A stretch of 64,000 nucleotides of DNA, from contig CASERQ010000002.1 of the NCBI GenBank assembly GCA_949290395.1, positions 206,079 to 270,078 of the forward strand, in the 5' to 3' direction. The notes under the pieces are model-generated. The model did no database searches and was not told where the DNA came from. It worked only from the letters and a program-made list of their open reading frames with translations. The position numbers and the translations under genes were made by a program. Numbering within the stretch: the stretch's first letter is position 1; each line of letters begins with the position of its first letter. The DNA comes from an uncultured bacterium (GTDB lineage Bacteria > Bacillota_I > Bacilli_A > RFN20 > CAG-826). Positions 449 to 3,046 of this stretch are shown here, one piece after another.

Positions 449-3046
<2,598 letters not shown>

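What the first reader, a model, noticed from the sequence alone, without database searches (positions are those of the whole stretch)
2696..2698. CGG reads as Trp: ValRS codon 117
Seen: valS reads GAA TGT TAT GCA CGG AAA GAA, i.e. GREAFLKECYA[CGG]KEAYSDTIHEQW. Known: bacterial ValRS has GRE.F....W.WKE, with a highly conserved Trp at this column. CGG is very rare: by eye I found only three in-frame in intact genes, none at a conserved Arg. Inference: CGG is reassigned Arg->Trp. Such a code was predicted for Anaerococcus and an uncultured Bacilli clade (Shulgina & Eddy 2021), so this is probably that lineage or an independent case. Standard table 11 translations would be wrong at these sites.
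Basis: partly seen in the sequence, partly recalled or inferred. Interest (0 to 1): 0.88.

Follow-up and report, generated by a model that had tools for sequence, protein, structure and literature searches.

The report
CGG codon read as tryptophan
This gut bacterium reads the normally arginine codon CGG as tryptophan using a tryptophan-type tRNA, a rare change of the genetic code already predicted for its genus, so standard translations of its genes are wrong at these codons.

Summary
valS lies on the minus strand (449..3046). Its codon 117 is CGG (plus-strand CCG at 2696-2698). All 29 relatives aligned have TGG (Trp) at that column.

- Of 110 in-frame CGG codons, 45 could be aligned to two reference genomes: 31 sit on Trp, 8 on Phe/Tyr, 1 on Arg.
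- Against a standard-code relative of the same family the split is W 15, R 0 of 34. Other Arg codons fall on Arg 44-62% of the time.
- The only tRNA with anticodon CCG is 74 nt long, with G73, G1.U72 and no A20. It clusters with tRNA-Trp(CCA), not with tRNA-Arg.
- No tRNA-Arg(CCG) or tRNA(UCG) was found.
- Contigs from three sequencing runs keep CGG at codon 117. A near-identical strain in another study has TGG.

The relatives are Bacilli MAGs, one titled Candidatus Onthovivens. Three papers already give this genus (order RFN20) as CGG-to-Trp. The finding is a correct rediscovery of a known, computationally predicted code that has not been confirmed experimentally.

One extra: a subclade of the genus shows no tRNA(CCG) and almost no CGG.

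The parts
449..3046 (-). valS, valyl-tRNA synthetase gene (865 aa), the host gene of the finding
   Evidence: ORF list and translation. Full-length matches of 46-83% identity in 37 of 40 relatives, split or partial in three.
2696..2698 (-). CGG codon 117 of valS, at an invariant Trp column
   Evidence: Sequence. TGG in 29 of 29 relatives and in 77 of 80 further loci. CGG kept in contigs of runs X1-X3. TGG in a 293-base contig of run X5 whose only difference is 2698 G>A.
43097..44611 (-). GH77 4-alpha-glucanotransferase gene (malQ-like, 504 aa), paralog 1
   Evidence: Pfam PF02446, E 1.6e-112.
43793..43795 (-). CGG codon 273 of GH77 paralog 1, at the second W of a conserved 'WW'
   Evidence: In 3 of 3 printed alignments to solved GH77 structures (1tz7, 6m6t, 1x1n) the codon faces W. 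The neighbouring paralog reads NYKWWN where this gene reads NYKW[CGG]K. My BLAST alignments to G041 and G136 gave L there, in a poorly aligned stretch.
41221..42732 (-). GH77 4-alpha-glucanotransferase gene, paralog 2 (503 aa)
   Evidence: Pfam PF02446, E 3.6e-151.
41245..41247 (-). CGG codon 496 of GH77 paralog 2, in the non-conserved C-terminal tail; uninformative
   Evidence: Not aligned in either reference genome. It lies beyond the Pfam match, which ends at residue 480.
58493..58495 (-). CGG at codon 23 of a 149-aa ORF (58112-58561); doubtful as a coding position
   Evidence: The ORF matches only the C-terminal part of the ABC_tran profile (positions 73-136 of 137) from residue 45 on. The CGG lies upstream of the match, so it may be a 5' overextension or a gene fragment. 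It aligned to Y in G136 with poor local identity.
58654..58730 (+). tRNA-Arg(ACG), the tRNA expected to read CGU, CGC and CGA (as ICG) but not CGG
   Evidence: ARAGORN. A TadA-like deaminase gene lies at G000:C1:54913-55347. That the inosine form reads U, C and A but not G is established knowledge, not tested here.

Best explanation
In this organism CGG is a tryptophan codon.

It is read by a dedicated tRNA with anticodon CCG, which lies outside the window at G000:C11:25075-25148 (minus strand). This tRNA descends from tRNA-Trp(CCA) through an A36-to-G change in the anticodon. It keeps the Trp features G73 and G1.U72 and lacks the arginine determinant A20. It is therefore most likely charged by the single TrpRS and rejected by ArgRS.

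The ancestral tRNA-Arg(CCG) and any tRNA(UCG) are not found. CGU, CGC and CGA stay arginine through tRNA-Arg(ACG, read as ICG), which cannot pair with CGG. CGG is thus read by one dedicated tRNA and could change meaning alone.

AT pressure (30% GC) had driven CGG to near zero. It now reappears at Trp sites through TGG-to-CGG transitions and makes up about 4% of Trp codons. valS codon 117 is one such recent and still polymorphic change.

Shown here: the column statistics, the tRNA set, the tRNA's features and kinship, the phyletic pattern, and the CGG/TGG polymorphism. Inferred, not shown: charging by TrpRS, rejection by ArgRS, and the residue actually inserted.
For: Column evidence in the window's genome
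- Against G041, a genome of the same family but another genus, 34 CGG sites aligned: W 15, Y 4, F 4, I 3, L 2, K 2, and D, P, Q, V one each; R 0. G041 has a canonical tRNA-Arg(CCG) and tRNA-Arg(UCG), and its own CGG aligns to R at 53 of 120 sites.
- In the same alignments CGT, AGA, CGA, CGC and AGG fall on R 62, 61, 49, 44 and 55% of the time. TGG falls on W 69%, F 8% and Y 5%.
- Against G136 (same genus), 38 sites aligned: W (TGG) 26, Y 4, shared CGG 2, R 1, five others.
- Union of both references: 45 of 110 CGG codons aligned, with W 31, F/Y 8, other 5, R 1.
- Empirical-profile likelihood: W beats R by 100 ln units and beats the runner-up Y by 38 (against G041). Against G136 the margins are 178 and 114. 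Only 0.09-0.21% of Arg-codon sites face W.
- CGG-at-W sites lie in Mfd, LigA, DnaA, MnmA, TrmD, an ABC-F protein, ValRS and GH77. Two of them (DnaA, TrmD) are CGG in both G000 and G136 and W in G041.

tRNA evidence
- 43 tRNAs were found. The Arg tRNAs are ACG, CCT and TCT only, and there is no UCG.
- The tRNA(CCG) is 74 nt, has the same D-loop (AATGGTAGA) as tRNA-Trp(CCA), G73, G1.U72, and a 5-bp anticodon stem. Rfam tRNA score is 56.3 bits.
- In a tree of 129 tRNAs, 27 of 29 CCG variants plus the 3 tRNA-Trp(CCA) form an exclusive clade. Support is 0.92, or 0.98 with the anticodon masked.
- There is one trpS gene.

Phyletic evidence
- The Trp-like CCG signature occurs in 34 of 54 genomes of the genus and in 0 of 347 genomes of 47 other genera of the family. 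The reversed-pattern control gave 2 hits in 401 genomes.
- The canonical tRNA-Arg(CCG) signature occurs in 0 of 60 genus genomes, against 3 of 4 same-family outgroups.
- In the flanks of valS, 21 genus-level loci gave CGG at W 5, R 1, others 3 (of 9). 59 outgroup loci gave R 52 and K 21 of 120, with W not among the eight commonest residues printed.
- G136's own CGG aligned at 15 sites: W 7, F 3, R 1.

Reads
- Contigs of X1, X2 and X3 keep CGG at codon 117 (depths 21.5, 4.7, 4.6). X5, from another study, has TGG as the only difference in 293 bases.

Literature
- The eLife 2021 paper (PMC8629427, section 11 and passages read) predicts CGG-to-Trp in an RFN20 Bacilli clade with the same tRNA pattern.
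- PMC13092985 and bioRxiv 10.64898/2026.05.03.722492 (passages read) name the genus Onthovivens.
Against: - No direct evidence exists for the amino acid inserted. There are no proteomics, and no RNA run was listed.
- 65 of 110 CGG codons could not be aligned to either reference, and some of my ORFs may not be genes.
- One CGG faces Arg (CGT) in G136, and 13 aligned sites face neither W nor Arg: 8 F/Y and 5 others.
- The tRNA carries C35 and G36. From memory, these are two of the three main ArgRS determinants, so some Arg charging cannot be excluded.
- From memory, A36 contributes to TrpRS recognition, so charging of a CCG anticodon by TrpRS is assumed, not shown.
- G136 belongs to the same genus and is not an independent reference.
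- The TGG contig in X5 has depth 3 only.
- By plain identity, Trp(CCA) is the nearest non-CCG tRNA for only 10 of 26 variants, and tRNA-Gly is close behind.
Confidence: 0.88

Rival explanations
1. CGG is decoded ambiguously. The tRNA(CCG) is charged mostly with Trp but also appreciably with Arg, because it keeps C35 and G36. CGG sites would then carry a Trp/Arg mixture.
For: The tRNA has C35 and G36; their role as ArgRS determinants is recalled, not tested. One CGG faces Arg in G136. CGG stays very rare at 2.6 per 10,000 codons, about 4% of Trp codons, which would fit a residual cost. The eLife paper states that ambiguous translation cannot be excluded by computation.
Against: A20 is absent in all 26 distinct variants, since GGTA is kept in the D-loop. 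CGG sits at invariant Trp sites of essential enzymes, and two such sites are kept as CGG across two species that are 66-67% identical in ValRS. The column profile equals that of TGG, with 0 of 34 sites on Arg against G041.
Confidence: 0.08
2. The code is standard, and valS codon 117 is a W117R missense mutation or an assembly or sequencing error.
For: TGG to CGG is a single transition. A near-identical strain has TGG. All relatives have TGG.
Against: Contigs of three runs agree on CGG. Thirty further CGG codons sit on Trp columns and only one on Arg. There is no tRNA able to read CGG as Arg, while a Trp-like tRNA(CCG) is present.
Confidence: 0.01
3. CGG is effectively unassigned, as reported for Mycoplasma capricolum. 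The tRNA(CCG) gene would be silent or non-functional, and the CGG codons would be slightly harmful recent mutations awaiting removal.
For: CGG is very rare. One subclade of the genus shows no tRNA(CCG) and only 3 CGG in 65,328 codons. Expression of the tRNA was not testable because no RNA run was listed.
Against: Random mutation would create CGG far more often from the 3,708 CGT, CGC, CGA and AGG codons than from the 2,460 TGG codons, yet R:W is 1:31. The tRNA gene keeps a full cloverleaf with compensatory changes across 26 variants in 34 or more genomes. Two CGG codons are shared between G000 and G136.
Confidence: 0.03

Closest known systems
Predicted CGG-to-Trp code of the uncultivated Bacilli clade in GTDB order RFN20 (Shulgina & Eddy 2021, eLife, PMC8629427), named as genus Candidatus Onthovivens in PMC13092985 and bioRxiv 10.64898/2026.05.03.722492
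   Same: The codon and the new meaning are the same. So is the tRNA logic: a tRNA(CCG) with G73 and no A20, no tRNA(UCG), and tRNA-Arg(ACG) kept. GC is low, and CGG is below 6 per 10,000 codons. The relatives are gut or rumen Bacilli MAGs, one of them titled Candidatus Onthovivens sp..
   Different: Nothing essential differs. I could not see the paper's figure supplements or source tables, so I cannot say whether this very genome was among those analysed. Added here: the tRNA's grouping with tRNA-Trp(CCA), its restriction to the genus among 401 genomes of the family, a within-species CGG/TGG polymorphism, and a subclade without the tRNA.
CGG-to-Trp in Anaerococcus (same paper)
   Same: The same codon change, and a tRNA(CCG) with Trp features.
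   Different: It belongs to an unrelated lineage, which the 2026 NAR paper calls an unrelated genus. The relatives of this window are Bacilli MAGs. According to the paper, CGG there is so rare that no supporting conserved positions were found. Here 31 were found.
Absconditabacteria code (CGA and CGG to Trp, UGA to Gly; same paper)
   Same: CGG is read as Trp.
   Different: Here CGA remains Arg (113 of 230 aligned sites on R). TGA is a stop: long ORFs are intact under table 11. A tRNA-Arg(ACG) is present.
Unassigned CGG of Mycoplasma capricolum (Oba et al. 1991, as cited in PMC8629427)
   Same: An AT-rich genome of the Bacilli/Mollicutes branch that lost the tRNA-Arg reading CGG, with CGG near zero.
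   Different: This genome has a cognate tRNA(CCG) and 110 in-frame CGG codons placed on Trp columns. The unassigned state may instead describe the subclade of the genus that lacks the tRNA.

Membership tests
CGG-to-Trp code of the RFN20 / Onthovivens clade | In-frame CGG aligns to conserved Trp columns, not Arg columns | tested here: met
   W 15 and R 0 of 34 against G041. W 26 and R 1 of 38 against G136. Union: W 31 and R 1 of 45. lnL(W) minus lnL(R) is 100 or more for the window's genome against each reference.
CGG-to-Trp code of the RFN20 / Onthovivens clade | tRNA(CCG) with discriminator G73 and no A20 (the paper's rule for provisional Trp identity); A/G1:U72 counts as support | tested here: met
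   G73, D-loop AATGGTA (U at position 20 by my numbering) and G1.U72. All 26 distinct variants in the genus end in GCCA and keep GGTA.
CGG-to-Trp code of the RFN20 / Onthovivens clade | No tRNA(UCG) and no canonical tRNA-Arg(CCG); tRNA-Arg(ACG) present | tested here: met
   ARAGORN on all 21 contigs: the Arg tRNAs are ACG, CCT and TCT only. The canonical signature is in 0 of 60 genus genomes and in 3 of 4 same-family controls. The assembly is 96.4% complete, so absence is not absolute.
CGG-to-Trp code of the RFN20 / Onthovivens clade | Low genomic GC (0.26-0.38) and CGG below 6 per 10,000 codons | tested here: met
   GC is 0.27-0.31 per contig. CGG is 2.6 per 10,000 ORF codons. The paper counts in Pfam-aligned domains, whereas I counted in ORFs.
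CGG-to-Trp code of the RFN20 / Onthovivens clade | Phylogenetic placement in the genus Onthovivens, order RFN20 | tested here: inconclusive
A record titled Candidatus Onthovivens sp. has ValRS 76% identical to the query, inside the 65-83% range of same-genus genomes. Its locus is 80% identical in DNA to two genus members. No GTDB classification could be run.
CGG-to-Trp code of the RFN20 / Onthovivens clade | Trp is actually inserted at CGG | not testable with these tools
   This needs proteomics or charging assays. The papers read also say it is unconfirmed.
Absconditabacteria-type code (CGA+CGG to Trp, UGA to Gly) | CGA also aligns to Trp; UGA is a sense codon | tested here: not met
   CGA falls on R at 113 of 230 sites. 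There are no in-frame TGA codons in the 1,104 ORFs by construction, and long genes are intact under table 11.
Unassigned CGG (Mycoplasma capricolum type) | No tRNA able to pair with CGG, and CGG essentially absent from genes | tested here: not met
   A tRNA(CCG) is present, and there are 110 in-frame CGG codons.

The most novel reading that the evidence does not exclude
The genus is not uniform and preserves several stages of a codon reassignment side by side.

(a) Most lineages, including this genome, read CGG as Trp through a tRNA derived from tRNA-Trp.

(b) One well-supported subclade of five genomes (G014, G003, G017, G016, G012) has no detectable tRNA(CCG). It has almost no CGG: 3 in 65,328 codons sampled. 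Of those three, two sit on Arg/Lys columns and none on Trp. This would be a living 'unassigned codon' intermediate of the codon-capture route, or a reversion.

(c) A second, divergent tRNA(CCG) lineage (G136, and a second copy in G015) is placed weakly beside tRNA-Arg in a tree. It may be a separate or chimeric solution to the same problem.

The CGG/TGG polymorphism at valS 117 within one species would then be codon capture caught in progress.
Probability: 0.3. Interest if true: 0.55.

Novelty: already known. Interest (0 to 1): 0.35.

Why it matters
Sense-codon reassignments in bacteria are very rare. Five were predicted in 2021, all affecting arginine codons, and the passages I read report no experimental confirmation of them.

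For this genome the practical consequence is that table 11 puts Arg where the cell most likely puts Trp. This affects about 110 codons in about 99 genes, including invariant Trp residues of ValRS, LigA, DnaA, TrmD, MnmA and Mfd.

Scientifically the case is a correct rediscovery, not a discovery. Its value is a clean and independent confirmation from whole-genome column statistics, tRNA kinship and phyletic pattern. It also gives concrete peptide targets for metaproteomic confirmation. Finally, it hints that the genus holds both reassigned lineages and lineages that lack the tRNA, which would make it a good natural system for studying how a sense codon changes meaning.

Tried and rejected
- BLAST with the 74-nt tRNA(CCG) found it in 22 of 60 genus genomes, but it missed the divergent copy in G136. 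I replaced it with pattern searches. One pattern hit (G173, L305) is not a tRNA by ARAGORN.
- I tested whether the tRNA(CCG) sits at the ancestral tRNA-Arg(CCG) locus. There is no shared gene neighbourhood between G000:C11 and the G041 locus, so I dropped the idea for this genome.
- Nearest-neighbour identity of the tRNAs was only weakly decisive, with Trp at 0.70 and Gly at 0.68 mean identity. The tree was clearer. Two variants (L271, L329) remain unresolved.
- The leave-one-out control cannot recover ATG or TGG, because each is the sole codon of its amino acid. That is a limit of the control and not a finding.
- The careful search of the ValRS tree did not finish in 300 s, so the quick tree is what I report.
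- No RNA holder was listed for the stretch, so nothing can be said about expression.
- The first 20 kb of contigs C1-C3 and 100 kb of C4 of G028 were fetched and not used.
- In one search I gave the wrong contig for G136's tRNA-Trp, so that row was meaningless. The correct sequence was used from then on.
- The figure supplements and source data of PMC8629427 and Supplementary Table S3 of PMC13092985 were not seen, because supplements are closed. They may list exactly which genomes and which tRNA presences were already reported, including the subclade without the tRNA. This bears on my novelty statement.
- I considered RNA editing (C to U) as a route to Trp and rejected it as unnecessary given a cognate tRNA. 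It was not tested.

Full report
**The observation.** The window is AT-rich (GC 0.28-0.31). It lies at C2:206079-270078 of a 1.37-Mb assembly of 21 contigs that is 96.4% complete. valS is the minus-strand ORF 449..3046, 865 aa long. The plus-strand CCG at 2696-2698 is the minus-strand codon CGG, number 117, in the context IGREAFLKECYA[CGG]KEAYSDTIHEQWA.

The column is a conserved Trp. TGG is present in 29 of 29 ValRS genes of relatives of the same genus and order. In 80 further loci it is TGG in 77, TAT in 1 and TTT in 1, and one locus does not cover the site. Some of those loci are the same genomes as.

**Is it one odd codon or a code?** I called 1,104 non-overlapping ORFs of at least 80 aa in the whole genome. 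This is crude calling, and some ORFs may be spurious. The codon counts are:

| Codon | Count |
|---|---|
| CGG | 110, in 99 ORFs (2.6 per 10,000 codons) |
| AGA | 9,519 |
| CGT | 1,889 |
| AGG | 726 |
| CGA | 583 |
| CGC | 510 |
| TGG | 2,460 |

To see what CGG stands for, I fetched two whole reference genomes. G041 belongs to the same family but another genus. G136 belongs to the same genus, at about 66-67% ValRS identity.

G041 uses the standard code. It has a 77-nt tRNA-Arg(CCG) and a tRNA-Arg(UCG). Its own CGG codons face Arg at 53 and Lys at 25 of 120 aligned sites.

With CGG masked as X, I aligned the window genome's ORFs to G041 by BLASTP.
- 34 CGG sites aligned: W 15, Y 4, F 4, I 3, L 2, K 2, and D, P, Q, V one each. 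Arg appeared at none.
- In the same alignments the other five Arg codons face Arg at 44-62% of sites.
- TGG faces W at 69%, F at 8% and Y at 5%. This is the same shape as the CGG profile.

Against G136, 38 sites aligned: TGG 26, Y 4, CGG in both genomes 2, Arg 1, five others. Taking both references together, 45 of the 110 codons aligned: W 31, F/Y 8, other 5, R 1. The remaining 65 codons lie in ORFs or stretches with no usable match.

I also ran a likelihood comparison using substitution profiles learnt from all other codons of the same alignments. It prefers Trp over Arg by 100 ln units (G041) and 178 (G136). It prefers Trp over the runner-up Tyr by 38 and 114. Only 0.09-0.21% of ordinary Arg-codon sites face Trp.

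The genes concerned include Mfd, LigA, DnaA, MnmA, TrmD and an ABC-F ATPase.

In the window itself, a second CGG (43793-43795) lies in a GH77 glucanotransferase. It faces the second W of a 'WW' in 3 of 3 printed alignments to solved structures, and it faces W in the neighbouring paralog. The third window CGG lies in a non-conserved C-terminal tail. The fourth lies in a doubtful 149-aa ORF.

**The decoder.** ARAGORN finds 43 tRNAs. The arginine tRNAs are ACG (in the window at 58654-58730), CCT and TCT. There is no UCG. The one tRNA with anticodon CCG (C11:25075-25148, minus strand) does not look like an arginine tRNA.
- It is 74 nt long, like tRNA-Trp(CCA), and it shares that tRNA's acceptor start and its D-loop AATGGTAGA.
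- It has discriminator G73 and a G1.U72 pair.
- It has U, not A, at position 20 (my numbering).
- Its anticodon stem has 5 bp and ends in U31.G39.
- Rfam scores it as a tRNA at 56.3 bits.

These are exactly the criteria Shulgina & Eddy used for provisional Trp identity: G73, no A20, and A/G1:U72 as support.

I built a tree of 129 tRNAs: all tRNAs of 80 nt or less from G000, G041 and G136, plus 29 CCG variants from the genus. In it, 27 CCG variants and the three tRNA-Trp(CCA) form a clade that contains nothing else. Support is 0.92, or 0.98 with the anticodon masked. Plain identity is less clear-cut: the mean is 0.70 to Trp, 0.68 to Gly and 0.56-0.64 to Arg.

The genome has one trpS gene and a TadA-like deaminase.

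The mechanism I commit to is as follows. A copy of tRNA-Trp acquired G36. It is still charged by TrpRS and is ignored by ArgRS for lack of A20. tRNA-Arg(ICG) serves CGU, CGC and CGA and cannot pair with CGG. The kinship and the features of the tRNA are shown here. The charging steps are inferred.

**Is the codon real in the DNA?** Contigs of three runs from one study cover the site and keep CGG, at depths 21.5, 4.7 and 4.6. They differ from the window only at 2957. A 293-base contig of a run from another study differs only at 2698 (G>A on the plus strand), which makes the codon TGG. Its depth is 3, so this is weak on its own. A CGG/TGG difference between near-identical strains, at a site where all relatives have TGG, is what a recent synonymous change under the new code would look like. 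An assembly error is not supported.

**Where in the tree?** A pattern that joins the Trp-like D-loop to the CCG anticodon loop occurs in 34 of 54 genomes of the genus. It occurs in 0 of 347 genomes of 47 other genera of the family. The reversed-pattern control gave 2 hits in 401 genomes.

A pattern that ignores the D-arm finds a tRNA(CCG) in 39 of 60 genus genomes, 32 of 40 among the high-quality ones. One hit is false.

The signature of the canonical tRNA-Arg(CCG) is in 0 of 60 genus genomes and in 3 of 4 same-family outgroups.

G136 itself has 33 CGG codons. The 15 that aligned fall on W 7, F 3 and R 1.

In the flanks of valS, 21 genus-level loci show CGG on W 5, R 1 and others 3. The 59 outgroup loci show R 52 and K 21 of 120, with W not among the eight commonest residues printed. 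The groups were set by ValRS identity, not by the feature counted.

So the change is a property of the genus and is absent from the neighbours I searched.

**What it is called.** Record titles of relatives are uncultured Bacilli, Mollicutes or Bacillales MAGs, and one is titled Candidatus Onthovivens sp. That record's ValRS is 76% identical to the query, inside the same-genus range of 65-83%. Its locus is 80% identical in DNA to two genus members.

The eLife paper predicts CGG-to-Trp in a clade of uncultivated Bacilli of order RFN20. It reports no tRNA(UCG), a Trp-like tRNA(CCG), low GC and CGG below 6 per 10,000 (section 11 and passages read). Two 2026 papers name the genus Onthovivens (passages read). 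I could not see the figure supplements or tables, so I cannot tell whether this genome was among those analysed. The genus name rests on titles and similarity, not on a classification.

**Verdict.** Both the observation and the interpretation are correct. The phenomenon is already in print as a computational prediction, so I rate the novelty 'already known' and the interest modest. What remains open everywhere is experimental proof and the degree of ambiguity.

**Beyond the finding.** In a quick ValRS tree (the careful search did not finish) the genus is monophyletic. The ten genomes without a detected tRNA(CCG) are not scattered at random. Five form one clade with support 99 and completeness 85-96%. 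The other five are single sisters of carriers, which is more likely to reflect assembly gaps.

I sampled two members of that clade. One 115-kb contig of G017 holds 1 CGG in 34,472 codons, facing R in G041 and K in G136. The first 100 kb of one contig of G003 hold 2 CGG in 30,856 codons, one facing R/K and one facing T. None of the three is on Trp. With n = 3 this is only a hint that the subclade is in an unassigned or ancestral state.

Separately, the tRNA(CCG) of G136 and a second copy in G015 are outliers. A tree puts them weakly beside tRNA-Arg(ACG) (support 0.57-0.77), although their nearest sequence by identity is another CCG variant (0.76-0.79). Both points may already be in the supplements that I could not read.

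Noticed in passing
window 41221-42732 and 43097-44611, minus strand: Two adjacent paralogous GH77 4-alpha-glucanotransferase (malQ-like) genes of 503 and 504 aa. Each holds one CGG codon.
   Followed up: partly
window 58112-58561, minus strand: A 149-aa ORF that matches only the C-terminal part of the ABC transporter ATPase profile (positions 73-136 of 137). It lies just upstream of tRNA-Arg(ACG) and looks like a gene fragment or an overextended start.
   Followed up: no
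window 2957: Contigs of all three runs X1-X3 read A where the window has G. These runs hold a near-identical sequence, not a letter-perfect one.
   Followed up: no
genus g1: G014, G003, G017, G016, G012 (L008, L023, L007, L009, L010; L335-L344): A ValRS subclade (support 99) without any detected tRNA(CCG). Only 3 CGG were found in 65,328 sampled codons. Two face Arg/Lys and none faces Trp.
   Followed up: partly
L271 (G136:C1:352690-352764) and L329 (G015:C8): A divergent tRNA(CCG) type (G32 in the anticodon loop, 74-75 nt). A tree places it weakly beside tRNA-Arg(ACG/UCG) rather than tRNA-Trp. G015 carries both this type and the common type.
   Followed up: partly
L053 (G199:C24) and L056 (G007:C56); G041:C1:251854-252020: In two genus genomes the Trp-like tRNA(CCG) lies within a few bases of tRNA-Leu(CAG). 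The canonical tRNA-Arg(CCG) has the same arrangement in the standard-code genome G041. In seven other loci the tRNA(CCG) lies a few hundred bases (about 320-430) from tRNA-Leu(CAA).
   Followed up: partly
G000:C1:98702-99055: ARAGORN reports a tmRNA whose tag peptide reads DDYKVRMKINNLVV. From memory, this is unlike the usual tags that end in alanines. It may be a mis-parsed tag.
   Followed up: no
26 distinct tRNA(CCG) variants, L031-L056 and L260-L287: The tRNA(CCG) varies a great deal within one genus, with many pairs only 70-90% identical and with compensatory stem changes. G73, GGTA and the anticodon loop stay fixed. This is fast change for a tRNA and may reflect the low use of its codon.
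   Followed up: partly
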